From the NCBI RefSeq assembly GCF_964355755.1, contig NC_092677.1, positions 5,664,101-5,728,100 of the forward strand: a stretch of DNA of 64,000 bases, given 5' to 3'. Of the stretch, positions 10,742-40,996 are shown in pieces (position 1 is the stretch's first letter; every line of letters begins with the position of its first letter). A program made the position numbers and the translations under genes. The DNA comes from Antedon mediterranea (Eukaryota > Animalia > Echinodermata). Under the pieces are notes generated by a model. It saw only the letters and a list, made by a program, of their open reading frames with translations. It had not been told where the DNA came from and did no database searches.

Positions 10742-10914
10742 ACTTTATAATATTAATTATTAATCAAATATCAAAACAATTTAGTGTATATGTAAACTCT
10801 CACTTTTTCAATAAAGGTTACAAATCAAAATTCGAAATGGTTTCGACTTACCCCAAATGCTTCGGATCCAATTAAAATGAATTAAAAGAATGCAAAAGTG
10901 TTCAAAAATGTTTA

Positions 10915-18700: not shown

Positions 18701-19664
18701 CATCCCCTCCCACCCCAAAAAAGTAAATAAATGGAGGAGGAATATAATTAGTTAATTTGCTATACAGATACAGATTTATGAAAAATAAATAAAAACACAA
18801 AAAAGATACCAACATCTTTTCTGAATTATAGAGATGGTTTTGGTGTAGCATTCTGACACTTTTATTTGATAACTTTTCAGCAACATCAATGATAATAATC
18901 TATATGCAAGAAAAATCCTCAACAACTGATTCTGCATTGCCAATTATCCCTCATGGAAAACACAATAGTTTTTAGGGCCATACCAGATTATTATTGCAAT
19001 ATCCCATTTCCATACCTATTATCCTTCTCATGTAAAATCACTCTTGGTTTTTCCCATTTAATCAACCTCTTTATGTTTATCTTTCCTCTTCTCATAATTA
19101 AATCTGATTTTTGCTCACAAAAGACAAAAAAATGAGAATTTATACAGATCACTGCAGGATATCTAAAAAATAAACAAAAAAACATCTCTATAATAATGTG
19201 TACTGTATATTCAAATTCAAAGGTTTATTATAATTATATATATTATTTTGTATCCTCCATTCAAAAGAGCTTCATGCTTGTATATTTAATGACCATACAG
19301 TAAAAAGAAATGGAACTTTAGTTATATGGGGAAAAAAGAAAGCAGAATAGAAGCTGTTACTAACATTTATACATTTAAAGTTTAAATATGTATTAAATTT
19401 TTTATTTTTTTTAATACAGAACATTGCTTTAAATTTCTAGATACAAACTAGTTTCTTATCGCATATAGGAAAAAATCTCTCTTAGACCAACAAAGTAGTA
19501 GAGAACTAAAAAAAAATGTAAATACAAACCTCTCTAATAAACAAATTTTAATTCCATATTAAAATATTCTGTGTAATATTATTTGTAGATGGTGGATAAA
19601 AATGGTCATAACAATTACCTGTAAATGTTTCTTGGTTCCTTATCAACTGCAGCAAACACATCCA
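15790..19664 (-). CDS. Sialidase (GH33/NEU-like) beta-propeller exons, probably inactive
   Basis: YRYP (RIP-like) motif, Asp-boxes SDDNGEKW, SDDNGDIW and SEDGCKTW, plus LGDG..SGKLV and YQGGIV. Order is colinear with NEU2/NEU3. Confidence 0.88.
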
Positions 19665-22600
19665 CTAAAAATAAACCAATTTTGTAGTCATAATTAAGTT
19701 AAATATTATTTTTGTATGTCATTTTGTATGAAATTTTAACAATTTTAACAAAAAATTCATTGCAATGCATTGCATATTGTTGATTTTGTCAGAATAATAA
19801 AGATTTATCCATCAATTATCTCATACATTTAATTATTGCAATGATTGCATAGTTAAATCTAAAAATCCAAATGAATTAGATCTGGTAACAAATTTGTATC
19901 TTTTTTAAATTTCCATACCTAAATTAAACAAATAAATTAACTTTTAAAAGGGTCACAAAAAGACAGTGACTTCTCTCATGAGGACCCTTAGAACAAAACA
20001 AACAAAAAGATCTATTGAATATTTACTTCTAAAGAAAATGATTTTTATACCATACACTAAAGTAATTTGCAAAAAAATTTCTTATTTCAAATAAACATCG
20101 CTCTAAAATATCAACCAAGTGCGTCATTCCTATACGTATGCATCACTTTACCTCTGGGAGTTATGGTAATATTTCTGATATTATTTTGCAGTGCGCATTA
20201 TTTTAAATGTATTAAAAATAAATAATAAATTTAATAATATGACTGTTAAAATGCTATGATTTTAAAATGTTACGCTGACAGTTGCATTTATTAGGGCTAC
20301 AATATATGTTTTGGGAAATAAACTACAGTACTATTCATCAGAATCCGAGAATAGCAATTCATTCACAGGATAGGGCATAGGCAGAAATTGTGAATTGAAA
20401 TGGTGAAGCTAATCTACTTTTACATTGTCAAAATTAAAAGTGGGAGATGGGGTGGGCTGGGCCACTCTTCACATTGTGTTACAGGTTACTTTTGAAAAGC
20501 AAATAACCAAAATTAGGGTTCTGGAGGCAAAAGCTGAAAAACAATTGGCTTACATTGTACACACAGGCTCGATGCTCTTGTATGTAATAGTTTATTTATA
20601 ATACCAATCTGTGTAAGTTCACAAATGTACTGTCCAGCATCAACTAATTCCACTTTCACAAACTCTAAGCAGGACCCATTACCATCAAAAGTTACATTGC
20701 ATCTTTCTTGTACTTCTTTGAATATTTTCTTCTGTTTTGATTTATCAGAAGACCATATCAATTTTTTTACTGAATTAGTCTTCTTATACCAACTGACGAC
20801 AATATCTTTATCCTTTATTTTATATTTGCAAGTTAAAGAAGCTTTTCCTCCAACTGATGTTGCAAAACTATCATCCATGTCTAAAACTAAAAGATAAGAT
20901 ACTGAAATACTTAATGAATTTCTCATTCATCTATTTCTATAATTCTATTCAGGCCATGTCAAATTACCATGGAAATGTGCATACCTGTAATTTATCATAT
21001 TGACAGACATAACGTCAATAAGGTTGAGAGGGTTTGTATGCAAACTTTACAGATCACACACAAATTGATATGTTTTACCAGCTCTAAATAACTCATAAAG
21101 AATCATAAGAACAGCGTGCTAGAGTTTGTTCTACAGGCATAATGAAAGCAACTTGACATAATTTCAGAAAGAATTTGGCTCAGTGAATGAACCACAATAA
21201 CACTTATATCAAACATACTTACAGCAATCCACAACTAATCTGCTTGTTGCCGAGTGGATTTCACTATCCTTTCCTTCTGTCACACATTCACAAAGGAAGT
21301 CACCAGCATCAGATTTTTCAACCTTAGAAATTTCAAGATAACCTGCCTGCTCTTTCTTACTAAATTTAACTTTAAATCTGCCAAAAACTGTGAAACTATC
21401 ATCAGCAAGTTTCTTCCATTTATCAGATTCATATTTATAGAAAATAAACTCTTTAATTGATCTTTGTATTGGTGATGTAGTAAAAGGAATCTTAAGGTTT
21501 TCTCCTTCAATAGACCGTACAATTTCTTTCATTTTTAAAACTGGATCTATAAAGACAACAAAAACATATATTGTAAGTAAATTACCAAAAAAAAAATATA
21601 CCACACAAAAATTAGGTTTTTTGTCAGATATTTTTTAAAATAGTATAAATTAGTATACTATAAAGACTACTATATAAATTAGTAGTTAATTGTTTATTAC
21701 ATTTTAATTATATATAAAATATAATATTATCATGATGATTTTTTTTTTATTAAATAATATTTTTTTTTTATTTATGGACATCATTTCATTCAAACAGGTC
21801 TTCAGCTGAGCTAAAGGATGATTATGTGTTTAGATGTTTGGATTCTGTTTTTCTTTAAAGAGATTAATGTTTTGAGATTTCATTGCTTACATAAAGAATA
21901 GGTAATTTCACTTCAATGACTTTATTTAGATTTACTTTTTTTCTTGCTTTCAAACGACATTTTATATTCAATTTAGCTATTGGCATTGTTCAAAGAATAA
22001 ACAATGATATAACACATAGAAATAAACACACTTGGGAGAATTGCATGGTGATTCAGAAAAAGAACATTGAATTATAGCAAAGAGCAAAGCAGGACATGAA
22101 ACTGTACATTCTCTTTTACAAAATTCTGTAAAATATAAGCACTATACACAGATGCTCGTTTGAAAACACTGCACTAAAATAAAAAAATGCCACACAACAA
22201 TATGCCAACAGATAATCCACAATAGTCAGGAATGAACTGAAAGGGTGAGAGCCAATGATGGATATAGATGAAAGCACTGAAAAAATGACAATGTACATAA
22301 AAATGACAAGGATTATTAGAGATCTTTTCTAAATCACAGCATAATGAGAGATATAAAGGTGAAGCTTTTATGGGTAACAAAATCACTGCATTGGTTAAAA
22401 AATACAAATACATACACTTACCAAATCTTTTATAAACAAAAGTTATGTTTACATTTTTGTGAAAATTTCTAAAATAAAGATACTGGACAAACCATGTTAC
22501 TGGAAATATTTATTTCTTAAAAATGTTCAAAAATAGGTATAGACAAACATCAATTAGTTTCTGAATCTGAAAGTCTATTCCTGGTGTTTCTTGGAATTTA

Positions 22601-25600
22601 GAAATTATTAGAAATTCTGACATAGTGAAGAAGATTAAACTTCAACAAAAATCAATATTTTCCCATTTATAATTAATATCATGTATATAATTTTTTTTTA
22701 TTGTGTTCTAAATCAAATCATCTTTGCTTCATAGTACACATATGATGTGGATAAATCATGAGGATCTTAATTTAAGATTGGTATATCAACATTATATTCT
22801 ATTACTTCATTCAAAGAAAACAAAATGTTTTAACACTGTACATTGTAAAGTATATAGAAATAAGGAATAAGGACCTCAAAGTGAGTATTCTTCTTCATAT
22901 TGATACTAATTATTAAATACTATTATTATTATTATTTATACAGATCAGAAATATAATATGGGTGATACCTGTTTTTTTTTTAAATATTTACCTACCAGAA
23001 TTTATAAATTTGCCTTTTAAAATAAAAATATTTGGCAAATTATGTATCATATGGTGGAAGGTATTGATTTCAAGTTAGTGTTCCTTGATATGCAAGACTA
23101 AATTGACCAAGACTTGTCTGTTTAAAATCAATAGAAATGTCTTTTCTTGAATTAAGTCATTTGACTAAATAAGTCATTTGACTAAATATGAGATTAAGTT
23201 GACCAGACTGTAATTAGGGATTAAGGGAGGATATCAATAGAGGTGCCTTTGTTTATTGATTTTTTAAATTTATTTTTATATACAGTGATAAAGTCTAATA
23301 AATAAATGACATTAATTAATATTAATATTAAAATATTTTTATTGATTGTCTTGATTATATTATATTGATTTCAATAACAATAAGAAGAAATTAAAGTTAA
23401 TAATTAACATCTTCAACATCAGGCAGATTGAAAGTGTAGGTCCACTTTTAAATTCTAACAATACAAAAGATAGTTTCCATTTTTAGGCTCTATTTAAAAA
23501 AAGAAAGACTTTAAAACAAAGGTTCACACTGATAAAAAATACAGTATACATAACACTTTGCTTGGCATTACCACCCACTACATGCAGTATAGTTCCAGAC
23601 CAAACAATCCAACAAATTATTAAGTTTCAAGAATGAATCCGTTCATCAATTCCAAACTAAAGTATTATTAAATTTGATCGACACTACCTCTGAAAAAACT
23701 TCAAGGAATGGCACACCCTTGGTAACCTCCTTAATACCAACATTCTGATTATGATCCTGTTGTATATCTGTAGATTTAGGTGTATTACCTTGAACTGTTA
23801 ACCTTCCAGAACACCTGTGTATTTTGTGTACTTTGTGTATTTTGTGTTGCTCCGTTTCTTTAAATTCAACTTCACATATGTAATTTCCTTCATCTCCAGA
23901 TTCAACATTCCTGATCTCAAGATATGCACTGCTTTCATTGACATATCCACATTGATAGCGTGATGTTGAATCAAGTGAATTTATTGATGTCAGCATCTTG
24001 TTTTCTTTACCTTCAACATGCTTATACCATGTCACATTGGACATTTCACCATAATTCTTAACATTTGTTAACTTCAGTATCAAATTAACATAATTCACAC
24101 TCTTTCTGGTAATAATGGAAGGAATATCCATTATGAGAGGAACTACAAAAACAAGACAAAACAAATCATCACAATATTGTGTATATCACAATTTGTTTGC
24201 AAATAATTAATAACAGGTATGTGCATGCAATACATATAGAATAGATACGATAAGGTTTCTTGTTTTATTACAACTGTGAATGATGACTTTAAGTTTCAGA
24301 TTGAAAAATCCATAGTTGTTCACACCTTCATGATAAACAGACTCTACAATGTTGTGTTGATGTCTAAGATGGGGTCACCAAGAAACCACTTTATCAGGTT
24401 CAATTGTTTTTTAATGATATTTATGCCCAGGACAGTCTTATAAGGGCCTAAATTAGTAAGTAAGTTGCTTTTTGAAATTTTGGTATTATAATAAGTTCAA
24501 TTTTTTTTCTCTTTTGTGGTGTAAACACCACTTTTATTCACATTAATATCATCTTTCATGTTATCACCATAAAATCATATTATTCATCACATTTTTGTTA
24601 TATTGTACATAATATTCTACATTTATTACAGTGAATTAGGCTGATGATAAATCAGTATATTCAGAAATAAGAACATTTCATCATCTTTAAGATTATTTCA
24701 ACATAAAATTACCTTCCTTAACTGTCAGCTGTGTAGTGTCTTTTAGTTCTTTTTCTCCATCAACTGGCTTCACTTCACATTGATACTTGCCAGCATCACC
24801 AAGTACAACATTCTTTATCTTCAAAGACAGAATGTTGTCTTCTTGGTAACTTGTTACTTCAAATCTATCATCTTCTTTACAATCCTCAATCTCTGTTGTG
24901 CCATCTTCCCTAATCTTCTTCCACTTGTAACATGTTAATGGCATATCTGATGGTTCATATCTGCACTTCATTTCAAAATTACTGTTACCTTCTTCTGTTG
25001 AGTACTTGGGAGCTGCCATCTCAATGCCTTAAATATATAATATATATAATAATATATATAAATAATAAAAATATATATAGTACAAATATTAATTGAATGA
25101 ATTTATGACAAGTATAATATAATATTGTACTACGGTTGGGGCAACATTTTTTGTTACTTGATTTTCTCATCTTTATCTTTTCAAATTAATTAATTTTCAG
25201 CATATCACTGGGCAGTTTAGGATATATTCTGTGCTTGTTAATTTATATATTATGATTAGCCTACTAATTTAAATTCAAAATAAAACTTACAATAAACAGA
25301 TAAATTGTTGACACCTGGATGCTGCTGTCTACTGCCCTCTATGCTGCAGTTGTACTTCCCTGAATCAGATCTCACATGATTTAGAAATGTTAGGCTGATT
25401 CTTCCTCTACCACTTGTAGACACTTAAAAAACACAAAAACAAACAAAATATCATCTAAAATTTAATTTCTTCATTTTATTACTTTTAATTGTGAAAGTAA
25501 AAATGTTTCATTGATGTGCATTGTCTATGCATCGGTACATTCAACATTTCAGACATTTTATGAATTCAGTGTGTCAAGAGTTTTGTTATAAATTTCTTTC

Positions 25601-28600
25601 TAAAATTAAAGTTAATTAATTTAATGGCTTCCAGAAATATTAGTTTAACAGGAATCTTATTTTTAAATTAAAAAAAAACAACAAATAATTTATTTTGCAT
25701 CTAATTTGTGTATTTAATAATTACAAAAAAAAATAATGTTACTTACTTGAGTAAGAAGTTTTAGATCTGAAAAACAAAAAAATATACATTATAAAAAATT
25801 AAGAAAAAATACAGATTTAGAAATGGTGCTGAAATGATCAGAGTTCATTGGTCTTTCCCTCTACAATGTAATTTATTTATATTTGTAATAATTAGAAATA
25901 ATAAAAAAAATCACAATGAATATTATCAGTACCATATTAACATTTTATGAAAAAAAAAAGGTGTTTGGCATGCCAGACAGTAGTGATAAATTATCTATAT
26001 AACTTTTTTTTTCAAAACTAAATATATTCTATATTTGTAAAATTTGACCACTATCAATAGTGAAAAGTTCCAAATTATACAAATGATTATGTAAAATATG
26101 GAATAAAAATGTATATTTATTCATTTATGTTGTGGTAAATTCATATAACAAATTTGCATTATTACTATGCAAATTACAATAAAATCTATAAGCTGATCTT
26201 TTGACATTCAACAAATTTCCTCTATGTAAATTGTTGCCTTTAATTAATGGATGAAATCATAAAAATGTAAATTTGAATAAAGTGAAACATAAAATTTAAG
26301 TATTTATTTTCTACATAACACACAGTTACTATTTAAAACATTATCTATTTAGTATAACATGCGATACAAGAAGAAACATTCTCCCAATTCATAAACATTC
26401 ATTAGTTGTATACTATTTTAATAGGTTTAATTCAAATAAATTAATATAAAATAAAAGCAAGCTTGTGTTTAAAATACTCAAAAAATAAAGATGCACAAAG
26501 CTAAAAATTCCCAATTGAAGTTATAAAAAAAAATTTAATGTACAGGTATAAAATAATATTCAATGTAATATGGTAATGAGTTTTGAATCAAATAATATTA
26601 CAGATACAAATAATGGCAAATTATTGAAGAAATAATCTGGTAAGTTTATGTACATGATACAGGATTCTGAATTATCACAAGTAGTCATATTATAAATGAT
26701 ATAAATGGCCAGATGCAGCGAGAAGTGAATGGCAAGAATATATACTACATATCTATGTATTTAAGTGTATTTTGTAGAAGACTGCAACCAAGGTACGAAC
26801 AAAACAGAGGCAATGGCAGGCAATGAAAGACTGTATATAATCTATGGTAAATAAAGCAACCAAAATTATGTATGCAAAGTATGTAAATTATTATAGTACA
26901 GTATTAGGGACAGCAGATAATGAAAGGAAAAAGTTAAACTACCAGATTAGTCAGGCAAACCCTAAAACCGATAAAGATAAATTGCCACAAAAAAACAAAA
27001 ACAACACAAGAACTAAATTGTTTGCCAAAGAAAAAAATAGATTGCTCGTTCTTCAACATTCGCTCATAAAATGTTTTGTAAAAAAGCATGCACATGAATT
27101 AAGCATAAGGAATCCTATTCACGCAGTTTTATTTGGGTTTTTTTTTTAGCTGATCTGAAGAATCTGAAATCCTCCATTTATCATGGCTTGTAAATTAGAC
27201 TCATTTAAACAAACCCAATTTGTGTTTTGTATGTAACATTAAGGGTTGAGGGATGGGGGAAGAAGATAGGTACAAAGAGGAAACATTTTAAAATATATTC
27301 TTATCCACTCAGTAACGAAATATTGTTTTTAATGTTTTATAGGCCTATAAATAATATACCACTAAATACAGTAAAACATTTACGATTTAATACGGTACTT
27401 TGTTAAAACTCTCACTGTCATAGTCGATTGAAATAGTAAAGTACATGTAACGATACACCACTACGACGTTTATATATTTTTAAATTATTAATTAATACAA
27501 ACGTTGAGAAGCAACTGTCAGTAATAACGTTTATTTATTTGTATATTATATGTTTATAATCTAACAGTAGGGCCTACCCACACTCACAGTAATAAAGTTT
27601 ATTTGTATATATTTTTATATTACATCTAACAGTACCAACACTCACAGTAAGAAATTTACGATTCAAATTGCGATCAAAAGTGGTTAATACCTTAACAGTA
27701 TTGTACAGCATTGCAATACTATTTATGTTTATTCTCCATGGGGGCCCATAAATCTAAATCTATACCTCTATGGTTAAACCAAATAATTTGGAATGTTTAT
27801 TTGTATATTATATGTTTATAATCTAACAGTAGGGCCTACCCACACTCACAGTAATAAAGTTTATTTGTATATATTTTTATATTACATCTAACAGTACCAA
27901 CACTCACAGTAAGAAATTTGCGATTCAAATTGCGATCAAAAGTGGTTAATACCTTAACAGTATTGTACAGCATTGCAATACTATTTATGTTTATTCTCCA
28001 AGGGGGCCCATAAATCTAAATCTATACCTGTATGGTTAAACCAAATAATTTGGAATGTTCCATTCATCACAAATCAATACATTTGTAAAAACGTATATTA
28101 AATGTATCACAATAGTATTTTTTAAGAAAATCGGCCTGTCTTCAACATTATGATACTGTACTCGAGCTGTTCAACCGGTTTTCAGCTATTAAAAACAATT
28201 ATCGAAGGAGGAGATAGGAAAATGCGAAGCCTCCTCGCATTTTTGTGGCGGGTATTTTTCAAGATGGACATCCATTAGACAGTGTATACCACGATCGGAA
28301 AACACCCCTATTTGGGGCAAATCGTTGAACCTAAATTCGTTTTAATCGTCAATAACTAATTATCTAACTTAATTTAATTAGTAAACAGGGTTACATCAGG
28401 TGGTTAAAATCAGTACCGAAAGTACGAACCAACTTTATATACCATCGAGTAAAAATTCTAGAAGTAAGGCGCGATTTACCGAATTTTGCCCTTACGTAAA
28501 TTTATATATAGATACTTAAGAGGGTTTGGTGTCATGTAAGGTTTTGGCAATTCTCATAGCAAAAAACTATAAGCATTTCACTACTTTGCATAGATGTAGA

Positions 28601-31600
28601 TGTGTTGTACATACTGTAACTAGCAGAGAGGTTTTGAATCGTGAAAGAAATAGAAATGGCTGTAGTAACTCTTTGGTCACATAGCATGAAGTACTTCGTA
28701 TAATAAATGAAGTTTTATATGTTAGTGAAAAGTTATTTTGTGTAATTTTGAATATAATGGGTAAATATGAACAAAAGAGCTTTGCTGGAAGTGTATCTTT
28801 ATCATAAAAAAAATCCCAATAAAAATAAAAATCAAATACCAAAAACATTACCTTTCATTCAAGTCTTTAGCTAGAACATGAAATAAAAAATAATACAACA
28901 GTTAGACAATACAGGTGTGATGATGGTATAATAGCAACAAAAAAATACAAAACTATATAGTACAGTAATTATTAGGATTTTGAGTGGTCATTGTCTTATC
29001 AAATATCAAACAACAACATTGGGAATAGGTTATGGAAATACACTGGTACATTTATGACAGTACAAAATAACAATTAAAAGTCCAACATTCTTGTTTATAA
29101 CAATTTAAACTTAATCGGGTGTAAGTGTAAGACGGCATCTTAGCGTATGATCATTTTTTAATTTGAGAATAATGTGGTAGTAATATTTTATTACAATTTT
29201 AAATAGCCTAATAATAATTTAAAGGTCTTTATCTTGAGTGGAAACATGTTTGCTATGCGTTTTATGTAAATGGTCATAAGAAATAACATAGATTCTATAT
29301 TACCATTACCACTTGTCTGTGTAAATTGGCCATTAGAGGAAAGTATTTTGTTCAAAGTGAAGAATAAACAGAAAAAGATCAGAAAAATTATATCAATAAG
29401 AGTCATTACAAAGTACCAGTATGTATTATAAATACAAACACCACAAGTACAATGGTAATCATTAATACATATATAATACAATGGATACATTTATAATAAT
29501 GGATACATTTATAATACAATGAATAAAAATACAATACAATGGATACAAATACAATGAATGTAAAATAACACAAAGTACTGATAGTATATTAAAGTAATTG
29601 AAGCTCAGTCTGCAATTGAAAGAAAACCTGTAATGGGTATAAAAGCATAACAAACAATAATGACTACTACTAAAAAAGAAAGTGCAATCTATTCTATTAA
29701 ATATTTGTTAAAACAATGGCGTAATGGCTATGAGCACTCACTGGCTTAGTCCAAGGGTTCCTAAGCTTATAAGGGCTCCTGAACTGCGCCCAGACATAAC
29801 AATTTGTCAAAAAAAAGGCTAAAATGCCTCAAGGCCTCCAGCGTTTGAGAGCCATTTTGGGTCGCTAAACTGCGTTACAAAAAAATTAATAAAAAGATAT
29901 TCATTTATGTTAATATACAATAATTGGTACTTTTTCTATACCAACAAACAATTATATTTTTTTCAATCAATCAATCAATCAATCAATAAACTTTGGAATG
30001 TATAGAATTATAGAGTACTACTACATTTTCATGAATGAAAGTGATGATTACAAATAAAATATCATACAACAGATTCAAATAGACTGTATAATACAATAGT
30101 TCAACAAAGCCAGCTTGCACAACGTGCAGTTGAAAAGTAAAAAGCTGAAATTACAACACATTAGCATCATTTAAAATATATATATATATATATATAACCA
30201 AAAAAAATATATCAAAATTTGAGATAATAAAAGGAAGAAGGCGGGTTCCTAGAAAGCTACAGGATCTTGAGTTGTGGTGTCTGTGAGACAGAGGAACGAA
30301 GGGACAAATCAACAGAAATATCCAGCTAAAGCATGCATTTGTAAAAATTTGTCAATTCTACTGAAGTAAAAAAAAATGCATTTAACAAAACTTTTCTACA
30401 TTTTTTTTTTGGAGACTTTCAAATTACCTTTAGGGTGCAACACTCCTTGAGAAAACTCAAAATAAGGTGTCTGTTCCTCGGTTCTTATTATTTTCGATTT
30501 ACATGTACTGGGACGCAAATCTAGGTCAACATATTTTATCTCTTTCTATAAATAGAATAATTGCAATAATAGAAAAAACATGTATCTGTAAACTATCCTT
30601 TTATACCAATATATAAATCCAACAAGGAGATTTTCAAATGGTTTGTTACCATATTTGCAATTGATACCATTGGTATCTCATATTTTAAAACATTTTAACT
30701 AACTTACAGGTTCTGCAGCTGGTTTTTCCTTTTGATCAGTTTCCGATATTCCTATATTGAAAAGAATATCCACTACAATTAAGTATAATCAACTGACTAG
30801 ACTACTCCTATATGATGAATAGATTTATACAAATTAAAGAAATTACTAATAAATAAATTATGCGCTCAGAGGGCGTAAAATTATTCTTCATATTGAAGAT
30901 AAAGATACAGATAACTCAATATTTTAATAATCATGACGTCACCAATATATTAATTTTCCTGAAATTTAATAGGTATTTTCTACTAATATTTAAACCAAAA
31001 TATTAATAATTTGAAAATTGTTGACACTATCTATGATACTACTACCAATGATATTGTAAACCAACGATGTCGTTGGTTAAAATGCCTTTTCTGAATATGT
31101 AAACAAATTAATATAGTTGTCAATAAAAATATAAAACAAGTCTTCTATTCTTTATGAGAGTATTGATAGAAGTTACACTGTTTTCAATCTACATTTCAAA
31201 ACAACTATATACCTTTCTTAACAAGCTTTCCCTGGGATACTTCCATATACGGTGTTTGTTCTTCATTACTTATAATCCCTCCTGAGGAGGTACTGGCTTG
31301 AAAATCAAGATCCGCATATTGAAGCTCTTCTTCCTAACATTTTCATAAACTAATCAATATCTCTTTTAAAAAAACAATCTAAAATGGACAAATTAACTAA
31401 TTGCCAGATTTTGAATAGACAAAATAATTCTTCTATCTCAAACGAATAAAGAAATGAAAATTAAACAAAAATGTTTTAAGGGATTTTGGTGTATATTCTC
31501 TAGCAAAAAAGTCAACTTTGCTAAGAAATTATCTTTAATTTGCAAAAGTGTCCGTCTAAAAATCTAAAATACCTTGTGTTTATCTTCAATTTCTGATATT

Positions 31601-34600
31601 CCTATAGTAGCATATAAAAGAAAATTAATTAAAACATGATAAAATAGATATACCACTTTGAATGAATTACTGCATGTATGTACTATAATTATTTACTACA
31701 TATATAATACTAGTCTATAACTTATTTTACTTTACATTTAAAATGCAATTAAAATAGTTTCAGGTAGCATATACAGTACATTAAGACTGTAAATTAATAA
31801 ATCAAAAACAAGATCTACAATCATGCTTTCTACAAAAAAAAAAGTTGTTTGTAATATAAATATCGTTTGTATTATTACGTTTGTTAGTTTCGATCAATTA
31901 AACACAACATTTAAATGTTAGAAATTATCTATTCTACAAAATGAATATACACAAAAGAAGATGATAATTATAAAGTATAAGACATTATAAAATGCAACAC
32001 ATCAAACCAATCAACTATGACTCAGACTAAATGCTAAATATGTTAGTCTAAAAAAGAAAAAAAATATAATAAATAAATGATATGCTAATCCAATACTATA
32101 AAATTAATATACCAATCAGAACAATTATATATTTTAAAAAACCGTCCACTTACAAAAATAAAAGCATGGGTAGATTAAAAAGCGGGACAAATAGGTTTTG
32201 TGGTTACATAGGACAAATGTTAAGCTGTCTATTTCTACACTATAACTGCAATACTAATTCATTATAATTAGTAGAAAAAAATCGGCAGCATAATGAGAAA
32301 GGTTAGTAATGTATGTTTGGTCAGTTGTTAGTAAAAATTACACACATTGCAGTGAAATCATCTAAGAACTGTCCACAATGACAAAGTTAAGCATACATTT
32401 TGCCAAATGATATTCTTCCAAAAATACACTCACTGGGTGAAGAATAATAAAATGAAGTGATTTTTTTGGCATTTTTTTCTACTTTGCTACTGTACTTATT
32501 GTAAATAAGCAGCAAAATTGTCTTTAAAAATATGACATCACCAGTAGACTTTCTGCCACGCTGTCCAACTTCAGCATAAGTGACAGGTTGTTCAAATGAC
32601 ATAGAAGAACCAGATTCAACATTTTCATAAATTATTTCGTCCTGTAAATACATTTTGGCCAAGTCACAATAGTAATAATATCCTGGACTTATAAAGCGCC
32701 TAATGTTGTGAATGACCGGCGGCTTGCAGCGTAACTGGGCTAAATTGTGCACAAGTGAAACAGGGGTAGATGGCCAAGTACAATGGGGTAACCACTCCTG
32801 GGATGCACTGGATTCTCGCAAACCAGGTTTGTAAACTGGACATCCAGTCCAAAAAGACTAATTTTTACCAATGAAGAACACATTTTGTTTTGCGGCACAC
32901 CGGCCTTATAGCACTTAACCACTTGAATCAACATTGCTTTGATTATTATATTCACACGTTTAAAAAAAACTTAATTTTAATACTGGATATCTAGATAGAC
33001 ATAGATCATATTTTCTATAAATGCTTCAGAATTGATGCATATGTCTTTACACAATTATTGTCATATAAATTGGGATTACATAACTTTAAAAATAGCTATA
33101 ACAATATATATATTCAAACATTTTTTGTGCATGCCACTGCGTTTTTAAAGTTTTTAAATAAAGATTCTTACTGTATAACCGATGTTGAAGGATCCTCCTT
33201 AAATAAATATAGAACAAACAGATATTGTAATATTAACAACTTCTAATACAAAAATAAATAAACCTGTACTTCATTAGCAATTTTAACAATACAATAATTA
33301 AATTTCTGAGACAGAATAGTTTGCTTGATTGTGTTTGGCCACTCTATAACTACTCCCTTAACACACCCTGCCCCCATCCCCACTTCACCGTCCACCTCAG
33401 TAATAACTGCTGGTTAATTGAGAAAAATAATTTGTAAATGCAAACATTGACAGCTTTAGAATTCACTGTATCGTAAATTATTGTAATGTTTACTGTAACT
33501 TAACAATCAAATAAAAACAAATTCTACAATAAATGTATACTCTATTGCTCATAAAGAGTCAGAGAAACCTAAACAAAATAATAAGTTGATTGATTGATTG
33601 ATTGATTGAAGTAAGAGATATACATTCAACTCTATTGAAACAGGACTTTTTGGAATGCATATCAAGTAAAAAATTAATCATGTTCCACCTGAAGCTAAAA
33701 AAAAGTAATCAAGAGAATAAATAAATAGCAAAGTTTATACTCACCAGATGTTGCTTGATGTTCTGCTAAAAGTTCACTACCTTCATCAACAGGATTTGTC
33801 TTCGAAAACAAAATTGAAACAGATTTTACATTATTTTAAGCATGTTTTAAAATACTGTAATGTTTTTTTTCAATATGACAGTAAAATACGTAGAATAAAT
33901 CAATTCTTTTTAAAATCAACATTATTAATTGTTGGTTGTTTGATGTGGTAGGTAATTTCTTGCCTTGACAGTTGTAAAATAAGATGATTTTGAGATTGAT
34001 AGGAAATTCAGAAAACGTAAATAAATAGCAAGATAGCAAGGCATAACATTGTAAGCATATATGCTATATTTATTATCTATTTAAGAATTTGTAGAAAAGT
34101 GAAAAAAATACAATATACTGTATATTAACATACAAAATAACTAGACATAATTTAATGTTAATGACACAAAATAATGGTAGAATTAATTATTGACCTAGCA
34201 TTTTAAGAGTAAGGTTTGGCAGTAGATATTTATATACGACAGATATACCAATATGATATAAAATAGATAATTATTCATATATGGTCTTTTCAAGTTAGTT
34301 GATACTATTCTCATAGTACCAACCTTTGATGTTTCTCCAGATTTAGGAAGTGCAGCAGTGTCTTCAGTTTCTGCAGACTGGTTTGGTGAACTGGATTTGA
34401 TTACAACAAGAGGAACATCTGCACCATCAGGTTCTTCTCTTTCACTGCCGTTCATGCGACTCTCTTCACCACTTCTACTACCACTGCTGTTGGGTTGACA
34501 CAATAAAAGAAAATAATATTACAACACAGGTACCTCTGTACCATCAAGACATTCTCTTTCATTCACCCTCAGCTGATATTCTACACTCCTCTGTTGCTAC

Positions 34601-37600
34601 TGGGTCAATATAATAAACAGTTGTTTTGTTGTAAATTGAAATCAAATTTATTGTGAGAGTTTTTCATACTTTGATTAAAATTAAAAAAAGTAAAAATAAT
34701 GTATTTAATCATGCTAGGTAAATGTAAGTTCAGTATTCAGTTCTGAACGTAGAGGAATGAGCTGTAGTGTTAGGAGCTCATTTTACTAAGCCTCTGCTTT
34801 ATGTGGTAGGGTGGCCAGTTTCTTTCCACGCCGCCTTATCCTCTCTAGTATTTTCAGGTACTCATTTACCGCTGAGTAGACTGGAAGTTGTCGGGAATTT
34901 AACCCAGGTCTCTCTGTACCCAACTTCTTATCATCATGTTACAATGGTGAAAAATCTCACCTGTGTTTCTTTTTATCTTTACTGTTGTATTCAACTATGA
35001 AATAAAACAAAGAGTTAATGCATTAATACAATATATTGAAACGGACAAAAACAGTCAGTACCTAAAACATTTTAGTAAAAAGGAAAATGAATAAATAAAT
35101 TGAAATTTGAATATAGAAATCATTATTTACATATCATTTTATTGTCCAATAAAAAATAATAATTACATTATTCAAATGATTATTTGAAAAAAAAATTGAA
35201 ATAAAATGGTTTGAAAAATATTAATATACTTTAGGATAAATAAAAAATATGTAATACAGTAACTTACCCGATTTGTTACAGTATTCAATACAAAAGAATC
35301 CACAAAAGTAAAGACAACAATAACAGACAAACTGACAGACTGTTTTACAACTACTGAATTGCTTTTGATTTGAACCAAGCACTTTGTTGTCTTTCTTTAT
35401 TTCAAAAGTCTTGAACCTTGCAATACTTGGACGGTATTTAAAACTCATCTCAACTTGTTTACCACCTTCAACTGTCAATGTATTAATATCTTTATTACTC
35501 CACTCAATATTCTTGTAATGCATAAAAACTAAAAGTAAAATATTATCCTTAATATTTAACATTATTTTAATGTATTGTTATTATCAAACTTTATATATTA
35601 TTTGAAAATAAATTATTGTATCTAGAATAATTTGTTTATTGTTCTCTGGCATTGTCTGTGTAATATTTTCCAGAACATATGGAATTGGTTTCCAACGAGA
35701 ATTTAAAATGGTGTAAACAAATAAACAAAGAAGCTATTATCAATTATTATAATACATTCTACATTAATCATGGACATTCATTTTTTTTACATAAAAATCT
35801 GAATGAAGAAATAATAAAAAAAAATGGTATAAAACAGTATAATGAATAATGTTAATGAATGAATATTAAAATCCTAAAAGAAAACTATATTTATTTAAAT
35901 TCCATCTAAATACACATGCTAATTGCTATGAAATTTATATAAATATTATTTAATTCACTGTGCAAATAAGAGCACTGAGGCAGACATACCTTATTGGATT
36001 CAAATGGGGCATTTAAAAATAAACCAATTGAGGGATAATGTTATATGCATGCTATGCAAATGAGGCAAATATTTAAACATGGGAGATGATACTTTACTTA
36101 CAGACAATAAGCAGTAACCATAGGAACAAACCAACAACAACAACAACAATCAGGAGGATGAACGATCCAGCACCTGAATATACAAAAATAGTCAAGACTT
36201 CCATTAATAAAATACAGATACATTTTTTGAAAGCTAAGGTATTGCTTAAAACAGAATTATTGATATTATAATGAAATTATTAAGCTAACTTTTAAATACC
36301 AAAAGCACTAAAATATTTTAAAATGCTGGCCAGAATATCATCAACTCTTAGTAAGTCAAATATGATATTTTACAGACATATTAATCATTGATAATAATAC
36401 AATTTTACATTTGTTAATTTTGTAGGTGTGGTTACTATAACACAGGAACTCCAGTACACTGTGATGTTTTATTTTTAATCTATACAAAAAAATCACAATG
36501 ATTCAGGATGACCCATTTAATACTTATATTGAAAATTCTTATCTATAACTAAATTGTTTACTCATCTAGAAAATAATAGGAAATTGAATAAAGGAAGTCA
36601 TTCAGTAAAGCCTAGTAATGTGGTAATACAGATGAGTTTTCTGCCATTAGTACGACGGATATACAGAAAGAGCATTACCCCTCTTAAAGCAAATTAGATA
36701 ATGGTGAAAATCTGTATACTTTACATTTATTTTACCAACTTGACATCACGATCAAGTTCATTGAATTGAGCAATAATGGTGCAACAACCTCATGTTTTAA
36801 AAATTAGGAACACAAATGCCATAAAAGTTGCACTAATATGCCTAGATAGAATAGATCATTTTGCTAGATGCTAAATTTTGTCCAAAATATATGCTAAGTT
36901 AAGAAAATTTATGCTAGCACTACTACTATTACTAAGGACTGATTTGTGATAGACAATTATATCGAACATAAGTCCTTTTGGCCTATCTATATCAATTCCT
37001 AAAAATGTATATCTGTGTTTACTGGAATCAAGTATTAGTATACTATCTGAATAAAGGTTTTTTTAAATTTTCTTTGCATATGCATTGTTATACAGTAATT
37101 AAATTCAATATTTTCTAAATAAACATGTTTGAATGGGCGCCATTAAATTTTAATGAGTGGGTAGGTGAATAGCTAGTGTTAGCAACATGAATTTAGCAAA
37201 TTTATGATGATTCTTTTGAAAAAAGACAAAGTGTATTATAACTAAAGACAACTGTACCGTATGTAACTTTCAATTATACTGTAATTGGGCCAGAGGCCTC
37301 TATACATGATTGAATAAATGGCCTAGGTCACGTGCCTAGGAACGAACGAATTTCATATATAATGGATTGAGTGAAAGTTTGTATTTTTATTTTATTTTTT
37401 TATTGGTTTGGTTTTTTAAATATTTAAGTGAAATAATAACAACATGCATAAATTATTCTTATAAAAAAAATGCTGATTGGAATATTTACTGTACCTAGAA
37501 ACATTCTAATATAATTCAATAATAATAAAATACACTTTTCAGTTAATAAAAAAACAGCTGTCAAAAGGGAACACTATACTATACTGTATATATCAGCTCA

Positions 37601-40600
37601 TTATACTGTAGCATTATGTTTGATTGGAACAATACTACAGTAGTAGAGGAGAACCACTGATAAATCTAAATAACAATTGGAATACAATTTTTTTACAATA
37701 GTAATTTTGCAAGATTAAACAATTTATAAGTACTTGTTATAATAAGTTTTTTTTAAAATGCAGGTTATTTCCCTAATTTGTCCATTCTCAGAGAGTGAAA
37801 TTGTTTCTAATAATAACAGTGAAACAAGGAAGAACAATTAAAGCAAACTGAAATTGAAAGTTGTATACATTTTACAACTTCCTTTGTTTAAATTTTAGAA
37901 CTTTGTAGGATAACTAAATATATTAAATTATTATTGGAAACATACGAACATCAAATAAAACTTTAAAAGAATAAATTAAAATTAAAGGATTTCAAATTTA
38001 AAATTATATTTTCAATTGCAAAAGCATTGATAAAATAAATTTGCATTGACAAGCATTGAACGACCATGTTAACTTTTATTAGGATTCATTATTTAGATAT
38101 GCATACCAAACTGGCTACCAGCAAAATCATTTGAGTTTGGTGTCAGTCCTACAATAAAAATGTTTGTGAGACATTTTGCTTCTACTAATGTAGAGTTTCA
38201 TTTCCATTCACAATTTATTCATTATAAAACACTTTTCATACTGCAACAAACACATAGCACTTATGAATGTTTACTGTTTACTTCTAGTTTTTGCATCTAA
38301 TCTATACAAACATGTACCTAATGGTTAATTATGCGCATACAGATAGCACATAGTATTTGATTTAAACTGTACGATATGCACAAGTATTATTGAATAAGAA
38401 AGAAAATTAGGAAATTGCAACGTAATTCATGAATGCCTTACTAAATAGTAAATTTAATACATTACCTGCTACATTACCTGCTTCATTACACTCCTCTAGT
38501 GTTGTTGTGTCATTAAGCTTTCCATTCTCTGCATAACATGTAATATTTGATTGACATATCTCATCATTAATTTCTATAGTTGCTGTATTTTCTTCTTTCT
38601 TAACCACTTCTCCATCTTGTAATATCAATACAGATGATGGCTTGGGATGGCTCTCTGCTGTACATGTTGCAATGCCATCTTTAGATGTAAACTTAACAGT
38701 GATAACTAAAAGCATTTAAAGATCAGTGTGAATGCACATCTCGTACAATGTACTAATAAAAATAAAAGCATTTAAAGATCAGTGTGAATGCACATCTCGT
38801 ATAAAATGTAAAGCTGGCCACTTAAAAACTAGTTTTAGTTCATGTTCATAAACACCTCAAATTTCTGTATTCAATTCTTGATTTTTTCAGAAATACACAG
38901 TAGGTTATACTTTGCTGTGTTCTCATGAAACAACATAAGTTGTTGTTGATACATGAGTACTAACAATAAATCACATCTTGAATCACACATGAATACATTT
39001 CAAGTAAACAGATCAGTGGTAAATTTGATAAAAAATCATCCCAAACCTTGGCAATCAGAATTTCACAACCCCACTATTTTAATTATAATTAATGTATGTA
39101 CATGGATTAGGTGATGTTTTTTATATTTTACATACAATATCCAATTATGTTCAACTGTTTTCCAACACTTGTTTTAGCATCATCTCCTTTAAACTGATCA
39201 CTTTCTGCTTTACATGTAAATATCCCACCATCTTCTTTAGTAGCTGATTTAATCTTAAGAACTGACACTGTACTGTTACTCGCAATCTCATATCTAGATA
39301 GGTTGTTGGTGTTGACTGTCTGTCCATCTTTATACCAAGTAATGTCAGGAATAGGATCACCATCAGTACTACAGGTAAAGGTCACTGATTGACCTTCATA
39401 GACAGAGCTTGCTGAGGCATCAAGAAGTGGTTGATCCAAGTCTGAAATGAAAAGATGAAAAAAAATGAACTAGCTTTACAAAATTATATTTACTAAAAGT
39501 TGATGCTAAATATTGTATCAAAAAAAGAACAAGCCAACATCCCTTTTTAGATCTAATGAATTTTTACTGTTTCTGGTTTGTTATTTATGTACTCAACTCC
39601 AAAAGAGATGAAAGAATATACTGTAGTATAGTTTCCACATTAACTGTAGACTAAAGTGCTATAATTAATATATTATAATATTACAAAACATATGTTTTAG
39701 TCATAATCATAAAGGGAATGCGATTCATGCAAAAAGAGCCATTTAAAGAAAATTTGACTTGAATTGAAAATAGGTAGACATTAAAGTACTTTATATAACA
39801 CCTATATAAATTCCTGCCATTTGATTGGACGAATGTGGGTCACATGGCGTGCAATAGTACGCACTATTCAACGATCGTTAAATAGTACTTTTTGAAACAT
39901 TTTTGTTTGTTATTTAGATGTTATATAAAACAAATAATGGATGTTTTGTATTCGTGTAATGGTACAAATAATGGCACTTGGTGAATGATGAAAGGTTATA
40001 TCAACTCGGCTTTGCCTCGTTGATATAACCTTTCATCATTCACCTCGTGCCATTATTTGTACCATTGCACTCATAAACATTCATTATTTGTATATTATTT
40101 GATATGTTCAGTATTATGCTAAAATTAGGTGGTACCCAGACTGTTAATTGAGTAAGAAGTAGTGGTTTCAAAACCTTTATAATAGTTGTTAGTGCAGTGA
40201 ATGATATTATTATTTGATCAATTTAATTAAAAATAACAAATTTAGACTTGGGAAATTACATATAACAGTGATTTTAGAATGATTTATGAAAATAGAAAAA
40301 TTCTTTTGATCTTTAGTCTATTTTATGATATTATACTCACAATATACAGTTAGAATAGATGGATTTGAGGTTGCAATATCTCCATCCGTTGTTCGTATCT
40401 CACACTGAAATGTTCGTTCAGAATCACCTCTGGTTGGCTGTGACATCACCAAGTCAGCTTTCCCAGGTTTTATGTTTAATTTAAAACGTCCATTTTGTAT
40501 CTTCTTATCATTTACAAGGTTTGTAGATCTATCTTCATACAGTTCATTCCATTCTATTGTATAAGGTGTAGTAGATGTAAATTGTGAATAATCACAAGTT

Positions 40601-40996
40601 ATCACCACTTCAGCATCACCTTCCTTGGCCGTCTGGTCAGATGTTGTCACCGACTGAGGAATTGCTTCTGAAAAAAAAAAGCATAAAAAAAACCACCAAA
40701 TCATGAGTTAATTTAAACATAACACGAGTATGATCTGTAAATGATATTACCTACTTTTACAATCTGCTAATTTCCAAAGTACAGTTATATACAAAAATCA
40801 AATAATATTGTCCATAATGAAATGTTGTTGATACTGTATTTAGACCACATCCAACTTTATACATTATCCATACACTTTGTCCTTTTTAACATTATGACAT
40901 ATTAAAAAGATAAGACATCAAAACAGTTACATGAAAATAGCTTTTACCTTGAATAATACTCAGCAATATCACAAGGAAACATACAGCTTTTAAAGC
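15790..40996 (-). CDS. Gene A: Ig-superfamily TM receptor with ITIM/ITSM tail, post-TM Ig domains and C-terminal sialidase-like domain (~1470 aa; ATG exon not located)
   Basis: AG/GT exons with compatible phases, total 4404 nt: 40948-40996, 40341-40667, 39136-39441, 38478-38705, 36102-36173, 35268-35528, 34961-34994, 34324-34486, 33745-33799, 33172-33197, 32542-32641, 31573-31601, 31213-31333, 30708-30751, 30428-30545, 28852-28870, 25747-25766, 25291-25422, 24713-25027, 23789-24142, 21223-21546, 20554-20880, 19619-19664, 19016-19162, 18421-18608, 17348-17422, 16599-16702, 16375-16491, 15790-16092. The micro-exons are the least certain part. Confidence 0.75.
20554..25422 (-). CDS. Gene A post-TM Ig exons (one half domain plus four full domains)
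   Basis: F-strand motifs DSGKYNC, DAGKYQC, DEGNYIC, DAGDFLC and DAGQYIC. All are phase-1 exons. Confidence 0.9.
27198..28512 (-). mobile_element. Helitron copy, 3'-truncated
   Basis: Reverse complement of 47703-49013, including the internal duplication. Confidence 0.8.
30428..32641 (-). CDS. Gene A ITIM/ITSM exons
   Basis: IIYENV and VTYAEV (32542-32641); LQYADL and TPYMEV (31213-31333); IKYVDL and TPYFEF (30428-30545). Confidence 0.85.
32665..32920 (-). mobile_element. Probable SINE just upstream of the first ITIM exon
   Basis: GC-richer block with an L2-type tail gcgctttataagtccaggatattatta on minus. Confidence 0.45.
36102..36173 (-). CDS. Gene A transmembrane exon
   Basis: GAGSFILLIVVVVVGLFLWLLLIV, conserved in the paralog at 58849-58920. 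Confidence 0.88.
38478..40996 (-). CDS. Gene A ectodomain: signal peptide, V-set, I-set and short C2-like Ig exons
   Basis: ALKAVCFLVILLSIIQ; ITCDY..IEW..FQCEI; FTCS..ITWYKDG..DGGIFTC; ATCTA..ITCYAEN. Phase-1 exons with N-glycan sequons. Confidence 0.9.
39923..40095. repeat. Long near-perfect palindrome in a gene A intron
   Basis: tggtacaaataatggcac..ggtgaatgatgaaaggttatatcaac, a short loop, then its reverse complement. Confidence 0.85.

What the first reader, a model, noticed from the sequence alone, without database searches (positions are those of the whole stretch)
25291..35528. An Ig domain split in two, with the whole signalling tail inserted between the halves
Right after the TM, TLTVEGGKQVEMSFKYRP...EIKKDNKVL reads like Ig strands A'-B-C with Cys replaced by Phe. 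About 280 aa later, a 132-bp exon gives only strands E-F-G (GRISLTFLNHVRSDSGKYNC...LSV). Both halves are conserved in gene B (58319-58579, 54236-54367) around a much shorter insert. Inference: the halves refold into one Ig that loops out the Cys string and ITIMs, so the tail evolved inside an Ig loop.
Basis: partly seen in the sequence, partly recalled or inferred. Interest (0 to 1): 0.8.

Follow-up and report, generated by a model that had tools for sequence, protein, structure and literature searches.

The report
Split Ig domain in feather-star receptor
A feather-star membrane receptor carries, just after its membrane anchor, two complementary halves of one immunoglobulin domain about 115-270 residues apart; they are predicted to fold together inside the cell, which would loop out a likely lipid-anchored cysteine helix and an optional set of inhibitory-type tyrosine motifs ahead of further immunoglobulin domains and a likely inactive sialidase.

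Summary
Genes A and B, and six RefSeq genes of the crinoid Antedon mediterranea, read ectodomain-TM-[Ig N-half, Cys string, variable linker, Ig C-half]-1 to 5 whole Ig domains, often followed by a degenerate sialidase. On a profile of the family's own intact Igs the halves cover complementary parts; joining raised the score in 8 of 8. An Anneissia homologue of the N-half keeps the canonical Trp. AlphaFold folded both halves into one V-type sandwich (Z 11.5, 2.6 A over 107 residues), but only when intact paralogous Igs were in the alignment; the full-length run without them left both halves unfolded. Co-folding is therefore predicted, not shown (about 0.65). Corrections: the insert is not the whole tail; the ITIM block is an optional spliced cassette; most of the cytosolic chain follows the C-half. 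Against: a stop-ridden Ig-like trace upstream of gene B's C-half (3 of 2000 controls), and database models holding only one half. Split Ig-like domains are known (lipin/Pah, RTX adhesins); my searches found none in an IgSF receptor.

The parts
40948..40996 (-). Gene A signal-peptide-like exon (start codon exon not located)
   Evidence: hydrophobic leader by eye
40341..40667 (-). Gene A extracellular V-type Ig
   Evidence: V-set E 0.0026
39136..39441 (-). Gene A extracellular I-type Ig
   Evidence: I-set E 1.7e-17
38478..38705 (-). Gene A extracellular short C2-like Ig
   Evidence: Ig_2 E 0.0037
36102..36173 (-). Gene A transmembrane exon
35268..35528 (-). Gene A Ig N-half (strands A-A'-B-C-C', B-Cys to Phe, C-Trp to Ile) followed by the 8-Cys string, a predicted helix that is likely S-acylated
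33745..34994 (-). Three constant linker exons (34994-34961, 34486-34324, 33799-33745), charged and Ser-rich, predicted disordered
30428..33197 (-). Optional six-exon tyrosine-motif cassette (33197-33172, 32641-32542, 31601-31573, 31333-31213, 30751-30708, 30545-30428) with 5 ITIM/ITSM-type matches; the last two exon pairs look duplicated; skippable in frame
   Evidence: isoforms
28852..28870 (-). 19-nt linker micro-exon
   Evidence: the same peptide is in P0003/P0004
25747..25766 (-). 20-nt micro-exon giving the start of strand D
25291..25422 (-). Gene A Ig C-half (end of D, then E, F with Tyr corner and Cys, G)
20554..25027 (-). Four intact, likely cytosolic Ig exons (25027-24713, 24142-23789, 21546-21223, 20886-20554); two lack the B-strand Cys
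15793..19664 (-). Exons of a degenerate sialidase-like (BNR) propeller that ends gene A
   Evidence: BNR_2 70.3 bits in relative P0003
58849..63590 (-). Gene B ectodomain exons (V, I, C2-like) and TM
58319..58579 (-). Gene B Ig N-half plus Cys string (one Cys replaced by Arg)
55168..57777 (-). Gene B three linker exons, no ITIM cassette
54368..54548 (-). Intron stretch that reads, with 3 stops, as a weak Ig N-half (fossil or chance)
54236..54367 (-). Gene B Ig C-half
52472..54058 (-). Gene B three intact Ig exons; no further exon of gene B was located

Best explanation
These are crinoid Ig-superfamily receptors whose chain, right after the transmembrane helix, carries two complementary halves of one V/I-type Ig domain that are predicted to fold together in the cytosol, which would loop out a likely S-acylated Cys helix and a likely disordered linker with an optional ITIM cassette. 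Shown: exon order, frame, sequence complementarity of the halves, conservation, and skipping of the cassette in RefSeq isoforms. Inferred mechanism: (1) the ectodomain binds a ligand; (2) strands A-C' and D-G close into one disulfide-less sandwich next to the inner leaflet; (3) the Cys helix in the C'-D loop is palmitoylated and pins the start of the loop to the membrane; (4) when the cassette is spliced in, its tyrosines are held near membrane-bound Src-family kinases and recruit SH2 phosphatases, as ITIMs do (established knowledge, untested here); (5) because the linker returns into the same domain, the downstream Ig array and the likely dead sialidase propeller stay tethered at a fixed distance from the membrane as a scaffold whatever the linker length, so splicing can switch the inhibitory module without moving the scaffold.
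For: Halves map to non-overlapping profile parts, N about 3-50 and C 60-107 of 110; joined scores 20.1-32.1 bits against 12.9-22.9 for the C-half alone, higher in 8 of 8. N-half shuffles: 0, 1, 0 and 26 of 1000. The Anneissia N-half (XP_033114273) scores 18.2 bits, 0 of 1000 shuffles, and keeps the C-strand Trp; it has Asn at the B-Cys column where Antedon has Phe/Trp with Ile at the Trp column, which looks like one compensating core swap. Core columns stay hydrophobic: N-half 7-9 of 9, C-half 6-9 of 12. Intact post-TM domains keep B-Cys in only 18 of 28 (one row had its N part outside my cut), and one intact type has Phe or Tyr there, so Cys loss is normal in this chain. Six A. mediterranea genes give the same joined architecture; mean pairwise identity is 0.71-0.80 for the N-half, 0.87 Cys string, 0.50 linker, 0.67 C-half, 0.77 next Ig. 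A paralogue (P0005/P0010) has about 64 extra repeat residues just before strand D of another, otherwise whole Ig, the same loop (read by eye). AlphaFold with intact paralogous Igs in the alignment: strands in both halves, 10-residue pLDDT means 62-88 over the strand blocks (47 in the loop after C), Cys string helical, linker mostly under 50; that model matches whole single V domains, e.g. 1nam_A Z 11.5, rmsd 2.6, 107 aligned, model 6-219 against chain 1-116. Cytosolic side: N-glycan sequons are 1.75x expected in the ectodomain but 0.98x in the later Igs and 1.15x in the sialidase part (8 related chains); the Cys string scores +0.7 to +4.0 against -6.1 to -7.8 for the TM on a recalled Hessa scale without positional terms, and gene B has Arg in it; its Cys lie on one helix face, 311 of 10000 shuffles.
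Against: Full-length AlphaFold of P0001 with only its 11 paralogue/isoform rows left residues 330-565, both halves, under pLDDT 50, though the intact next Ig reached only 50-63. The successful fold had 7 intact Igs aligned across the gap, so the pairing signal was supplied; pTM 0.45, Foldseek best E 1.3e-3, none at 0.001 or better. The N-half has no Pfam or PDB sequence hit and hhalign against the window's intact Igs gives probability 7%. The intron upstream of gene B's C-half adds 7 bits as a stop-ridden N-half, as much as the true N-half (20.0 vs 20.1 bits); 1 of 500 shuffles and 3 of 2000 real intron stretches reach it, while gene A shows nothing (187 of 500; 396 of 2000). Between genes A and B the C-half shows dN/dS 1.39 (3.5 synonymous differences only) against 0.52 for the N-half core. 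RefSeq has a model that begins at the C-half (P0013) and one with the N-half only (P0015). No transcript of the window's own genes was seen; exon joins rest on phase and on predicted models of a related species.
Confidence: 0.65

Rival explanations
1. The halves are relics of two duplicated Ig exons that each lost a half and do not fold together; the N-half exon is kept as a linear binding and membrane-anchoring module.
For: Ig-like trace in the intron upstream of gene B's C-half; no fold without intact Igs in the alignment; N-half weak by hhalign, whose alignment runs on through the Cys string onto strands D-E; C-half dN/dS 1.39; half-only database models.
Against: The retained halves are complementary with no overlap in 8 of 8; the Tyr-corner motif and F-Cys are kept in every C-half and the core pattern in every N-half; no trace in gene A. 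An origin by duplication does not exclude co-folding today.
Confidence: 0.14
2. The Cys string is a second transmembrane helix, so the C-half, the later Igs and the sialidase-like domain are extracellular and the halves sit on opposite sides of the membrane.
For: Kyte-Doolittle 19-mer means of 1.75-2.0 in 7 of 8 chains; 18 of 28 later Igs keep both canonical Cys; some sequons recur in the C-half G strand; a two-TM echinoderm receptor with an Ig between the helices is reported (PMC13133943, passages).
Against: Positive insertion energy in 8 of 8 and Arg inside the string in gene B; no sequon excess after the string; the ITIM-type motifs would be outside the cell; a similar Cys-rich 'TM' in CYSTM proteins proved to be palmitoylated and not transmembrane (PMC10840359, abstract).
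Confidence: 0.11
3. The halves do fold as one Ig but between chains (domain swap, or a separately made C-half-Ig-sialidase chain), so the split domain is a dimerisation or docking device.
For: P0013, the same protein in three RefSeq records, starts at the Met made by the micro-exon/C-half junction and has no signal peptide or TM; linkers over 110 aa allow pairing in trans (inference).
Against: P0013 may be a truncated model; its genomic upstream could not be read here; pairing in cis is favoured by tethering (inference).
Confidence: 0.06
4. Two adjacent genes (an ITIM receptor and a cytosolic Ig-sialidase protein) are merely joined by gene prediction.
For: A possible phase-1 terminal exon at 25860 would stop an ITIM-only receptor before the C-half; P0013 and P0014 are Ig-sialidase models without TM.
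Against: Six A. mediterranea genes are joined at the same junctions; both window genes are in frame throughout; the halves are complementary.
Confidence: 0.04

Closest known systems
Lipin/Pah phosphatidate phosphatase split Ig-like domain (PMC7066176, passages read)
   Same: A cytosolic, membrane-associated Ig-like sandwich built from two halves that co-fold across a 250-500 residue linker inserted in one turn.
   Different: Lipin's is an atypical Ig-like fold in a HAD enzyme, split at its E/E' hairpin. Here it is an IgSF V/I-type domain of a type I receptor, split between C' and D, with a Cys helix and a spliced ITIM cassette in the loop; no sequence relation was found.
Split Ig-like domains of bacterial RTX adhesins (PMC10865825, passages read)
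   Same: Discontinuous Ig-like fold that projects an inserted functional module; hard to see by homology search.
   Different: Bacterial, extracellular, and the insert is a folded ligand-binding domain, not a disordered signalling linker.
Split PH domain of phospholipase C-gamma (PMC2573054, passages read)
   Same: Signalling modules sit between two halves (about 330-340 residues apart) of a beta-rich domain that folds when the halves meet.
   Different: PH fold, soluble enzyme.
AjNLR-new of the sea cucumber Apostichopus japonicus (PMC13133943, passages read)
   Same: Echinoderm membrane receptor reported to have an intracellular Ig domain that binds cytoskeletal partners.
   Different: Two TMs and a NACHT domain; no split Ig, ITIM cassette or sialidase-like domain appears in the passages read.
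ITIM-bearing IgSF inhibitory receptors (Siglec, CD300, PD-1 type; recalled, no call)
   Same: Extracellular Ig domains, one TM, consensus tyrosine motifs on small exons.
   Different: Their ITIMs lie in a free C-terminal tail; here they are an optional cassette inside a loop, followed by 450-850 more residues.
GH33 animal sialidases (PMC3431349, passages read)
   Same: BNR_2 above the Pfam cut-off in relatives, Asp boxes and an N-terminal Arg-x-Pro motif.
   Different: Fused behind a receptor and an Ig array; several catalytic positions appear replaced.

Membership tests
IgSF V/I-set domain (the two halves together) | B-strand Cys | tested here: not met
   Phe or Trp in 8 of 8 Antedon-type N-halves, Asn in Anneissia; 10 of 28 intact post-TM rows also lack it
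IgSF V/I-set domain (the two halves together) | C-strand Trp | tested here: inconclusive
   Ile in 7 of 8 Antedon-type chains (the eighth aligned in another register), Trp in the Anneissia homologue
IgSF V/I-set domain (the two halves together) | F-strand D-x-G-x-Y-x-C (tyrosine corner) | tested here: met
   G-x-Y-x-C in 9 of 9 C-halves, Asp in 8 of 9; Pfam V-set 70-95
IgSF V/I-set domain (the two halves together) | All strands A' to G present once, in order | tested here: met
   Complementary coverage of the in-family profile in 8 of 8
IgSF V/I-set domain (the two halves together) | Joined halves pass a Pfam V-set or I-set cut-off | not tested
   Only the separate exons were scanned against Pfam; the joined form was scored against an in-family HMM
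IgSF V/I-set domain (the two halves together) | Folds as one two-sheet sandwich | tested here: inconclusive
   Yes with intact Igs in the alignment; no without them
ITIM-bearing inhibitory IgSF receptor | Extracellular Ig domains plus one TM | tested here: met
ITIM-bearing inhibitory IgSF receptor | [SIVLT]xYxx[ILV] motifs after the TM | tested here: met
   5 in gene A, 3 in P0008, 1 in P0007, none in the other 6 of 9 chains scanned
ITIM-bearing inhibitory IgSF receptor | Phosphorylation and SHP/SHIP recruitment | not testable with these tools
   needs cells
GH33 sialidase | BNR/Asp-box propeller | tested here: met
   BNR_2 70.3, 57.6 and 44.1 bits in P0003, P0014 and P0013, cut-off 31.4; window exons match P0003
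GH33 sialidase | Arg triad, Tyr/Glu pair, acid-base Asp (PMC3431349) | tested here: inconclusive
   First Arg kept; the third-Arg stretch aligns to Asn/Lys in a weak match to a solved sialidase; loss of the Tyr and second Arg is judged from recalled motif positions, not from a full alignment
CYSTM/CYSPD palmitoylated module | Small protein with a C-terminal Cys-rich helix | tested here: not met
   Internal segment of a large receptor; no Pfam hit on the exon; it may still work like one
Lipin/Pah split Ig-like domain | N-Lip/C-Lip and HAD catalytic domain | tested here: not met
   Pfam scans of five relatives list only Ig-type and BNR families, none for P0015; works-like comparison only

The most novel reading that the evidence does not exclude
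A crinoid receptor family has built its signalling module inside a loop of a cytosolic, membrane-proximal Ig domain: a palmitoylated helix and a splice-switchable ITIM cassette hang out of a split V-type Ig that keeps an intracellular Ig array and a pseudo-sialidase propeller at the membrane, and opening or swapping of the split domain (including docking of separately made C-half-Ig-sialidase chains) regulates signalling.
Probability: 0.2. Interest if true: 0.85.

Novelty: new variant of a known kind. Interest (0 to 1): 0.62.

Why it matters
If the halves co-fold, this is a natural circularised signalling tail: motifs can be added or spliced out of an Ig loop without moving the downstream scaffold. 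It would extend split-domain architecture, known from lipin/Pah, RTX adhesins and PLC-gamma, to Ig-superfamily receptors, and it shows a kind of domain that Pfam scans miss (the N-half has no hit). The wider chain (cytosolic Ig tandem plus a likely dead sialidase behind an Ig ectodomain) defines an expanded, apparently crinoid-limited receptor family, a candidate for immune or self-recognition in the least studied echinoderm class. The core claim can be tested with two short recombinant fragments.

Tried and rejected
Expression: no RNA holder listed for 23700-25450. Laying four contig sets on 25150-29940 listed no joint from the possibly-RNA run among the 15 rows shown (166 not shown); that run had cover in the bins holding the C-half and the 20-nt micro-exon and none in three neighbouring bins, which is not usable as evidence; one contig of another run matches 25399-25725 without a difference. 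No whole genome was held. ESM Atlas: best feature score 0.78, unnamed, uninformative. Searches for an unsplit orthologue: HMMER over 1.84 billion representatives with the two N-half exons gave 8 hits, 6 crinoid and 2 that I judged chance from their sequences; word-seeded searches gave only A. mediterranea proteins (7 of 19, 9 of 1930 and 7 of 7853 candidates; length-limited), so no Anneissia C-half and no unsplit orthologue were found; the nearest unsplit domains are the paralogous Igs in the same chain. DNA-level searches (blastn, nhmmer) for an N-half remnant upstream of either C-half found only short chance-level matches. No counterparts of the two micro-exons were found in gene B. PDB sequence searches gave generic Ig proteins, nothing for the N-half profile and weak sialidase matches, best E 0.03. 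The scan's earlier findings held nothing by sequence or words. Literature: 0 papers for sialidase + immunoglobulin domain + crinoid, 0 for half-domain exons; of 52 papers with split/discontinuous Ig terms I saw 25 listed, and the relevant ones concerned lipin/Pah and bacterial adhesins or secreted substrates; listings showed no paper on this family. Subscription literature is not covered.
Full report
Setting. The window is AT-rich animal DNA (GC 26-38%) with no genome held. Two paralogous genes lie on the minus strand. Their closest relatives are RefSeq proteins of the crinoid Antedon mediterranea (76-86% identical over the N-half exon), so the source is likely an Antedon-like feather star; I did not determine it.

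Anatomy. Gene A, built by hand from AG/GT boundaries and phases, reads: leader, V, I and C2-like Igs, TM, the 261-nt exon (Ig N-half plus Cys string), three linker exons, six exons with tyrosine motifs, two micro-exons, the 132-nt C-half exon, four whole Ig exons and a sialidase-like domain. The chain up to the first sialidase exon is 1158 aa without a stop; the remaining exons match P0003 down to 15796. Gene B has the same order with three linker exons and three whole Igs, 841 aa without a stop. Six A. mediterranea genes join the same parts at the same junctions. P0003, 100% identical to gene A over 44 linker residues, lacks the tyrosine block; in another gene, isoforms X1 and X2 include part of such a block and X3 skips it. 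Skipping is in frame in gene A. These are predicted models; no transcript of the window's genes was seen.

Are they halves of one Ig? I built an HMM from 30 intact Igs of the window and six relatives. N-halves match about positions 3-50 and C-halves 60-107; joining raised the score in 8 of 8 (20.1-32.1 vs 12.9-22.9 bits). N-half shuffles reached the real score in 0, 1, 0 and 26 of 1000; with a narrower profile in 7, 20, 25 and 49 of 1000. A full HMMER search found one further relative, in Anneissia japonica, with N-half and Cys string (E 4.7e-8); it scores 18.2 bits, 0 of 1000 shuffles, and keeps the canonical C-strand Trp. Core columns are hydrophobic in 7-9 of 9 (N) and 6-9 of 12 (C) positions, and 10 of 28 intact post-TM rows also lack the B-strand Cys, one type with Phe or Tyr there. 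Weak points: no Pfam hit for the N-half, hhalign probability 7%, no PDB sequence hit.

Do they fold together? Two AlphaFold runs disagree. Full-length P0001 with 11 paralogue/isoform rows left 330-565 under pLDDT 50, while the intact next Ig reached only 50-63, so the alignment was too shallow to decide. The natural fragment from N-half to C-half, aligned with window exons that included seven intact Igs, which MAFFT placed across the gap, gave strands in both halves, a helix over the Cys string and a low-confidence linker (pTM 0.45). That model matches whole single V domains: Z 11.5, rmsd 2.6 A, 107 residues, model 6-219 on chain 1-116 of 1nam_A; Foldseek TM 0.67-0.70 to 109-112 residue TCR V domains but best E 1.3e-3. 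The intact rows supplied the pairing signal, so this shows compatibility, not independent proof. A two-chain prediction with controls was not available. Supporting by analogy, paralogue P0005/P0010 has about 64 extra repeat residues just before strand D of another Ig (by eye).

A six-frame scan of the window found no intact N-half exon upstream of either C-half. In gene B, however, the 181 nt of intron upstream read in frame, with 3 stops, as a weak N-half: 20.0 vs 12.9 bits, 1 of 500 shuffles and 3 of 2000 real intron stretches; gene A shows nothing (187 of 500; 396 of 2000). DNA-level searches did not confirm it. It is either chance or a fossil showing that the C-half came from a once-whole exon. 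That bears on origin (duplication with reciprocal half-loss instead of insertion into a loop) more than on present folding. Selection is mixed: among six relatives identity is 0.71-0.80 (N-half), 0.87 (Cys string), 0.50 (linker), 0.67 (C-half), 0.77 (next Ig); A versus B gives dN/dS 0.52, 0.16 and 1.39 for N-core, Cys string and C-half on very few sites. Two database models hold one half only (P0013, P0015), unresolved.

Topology. Co-folding needs both halves on one side. The Cys string is moderately hydrophobic (Kyte-Doolittle 1.75-2.0 in 7 of 8) but scores +0.7 to +4.0 on a recalled Hessa scale against -6.1 to -7.8 for the TM, and gene B has Arg in it. Sequons are 42 vs 24.0 expected in the ectodomains but 23 vs 23.4 in the later Igs and 15 vs 13.1 in the sialidase part; the linker has 16 vs 11.2; the 8 chains are related, not independent. 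The Cys fall on one helix face (311 of 10000 shuffles). A comparable Cys-rich 'TM' in yeast CYSTM proteins proved palmitoylated and not transmembrane (PMC10840359, abstract). I therefore read everything after the TM as likely cytosolic.

Mechanism (inferred). The N-half starts at the membrane; after strand C' the chain leaves the domain as an acylated helix on the inner leaflet, runs through a charged linker with an optional ITIM/ITSM cassette (5 consensus matches in gene A, none in 6 of 9 chains scanned), and returns for strands D-G. This would hold the tyrosines near membrane kinases while the Ig array and the propeller (BNR_2 above cut-off; likely inactive, judged partly from recalled motif positions against the six residues named in PMC3431349) remain at a fixed distance as a scaffold. 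Confidence 0.65; rivals: relic halves 0.14, second TM 0.11, pairing in trans 0.06, two fused genes 0.04.

Comparison and novelty. Split Ig-like domains that co-fold across a long linker are known in lipin/Pah (PMC7066176, passages) and RTX adhesins (PMC10865825, passages); PLC-gamma has a split PH domain (PMC2573054, passages); an intracellular Ig is reported in a sea-cucumber receptor (PMC13133943, passages). My searches (open literature only, no supplements read) showed no split V/I-type Ig in an IgSF receptor and no paper on this family. It works like the lipin split domain but is not a member of that family. Verdict: real feature, new variant of a known kind, interest 0.62.

Noticed in passing
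window 15793-25027 (-): Gene A continues after the C-half with four whole Ig domains and a degenerate sialidase-like propeller, all likely cytosolic; this receptor-Ig-array-pseudo-sialidase architecture is unusual by itself and recurs in four of six A. mediterranea genes.
   Followed up: partly
P0005/P0010 (A. mediterranea), third whole post-TM Ig: About nine 8-residue repeats sit just before strand D of an otherwise whole Ig: a second long insertion in the same loop.
   Followed up: partly
P0013 (XP_071944339-41) and P0015 (XP_033114273): One model starts at the Met formed at the micro-exon/C-half junction and has no N-half; the other has N-half and Cys string but no C-half. Truncated models or real half-genes.
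   Followed up: no
window 25860-25837 (-): Possible phase-1 terminal exon that would end an ITIM-only receptor seven codons after the cassette.
   Followed up: partly
window 54368-54548 (-): Intron reads with 3 stops as a weak Ig N-half in frame with gene B's C-half.
   Followed up: yes
window 5073-10744 (-): Two long overlapping ORFs (322 and 1574 codons) that look like gag and pol of an LTR retrotransposon of the Ty3/gypsy type (label recalled from motifs, not scanned).
   Followed up: no
window 27070-28670 and copies near 56300-56750, 59550-60250, 61650-62700: A high-copy dispersed repeat in introns of both genes (very high contig depth at 27070-28670; other copies by eye).
   Followed up: no
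window 53345-54058 (-): Gene B has two tandem copies of the first whole post-TM Ig exon; no sialidase exons of gene B were found in the window, so it may be a shorter or truncated paralogue.
   Followed up: partly
window 38478-40667 vs 60331-63590 (-): Ectodomain exons of genes A and B show dN/dS 0.66-1.30 on few sites, compatible with relaxed or diversifying selection on a recognition surface.
   Followed up: partly
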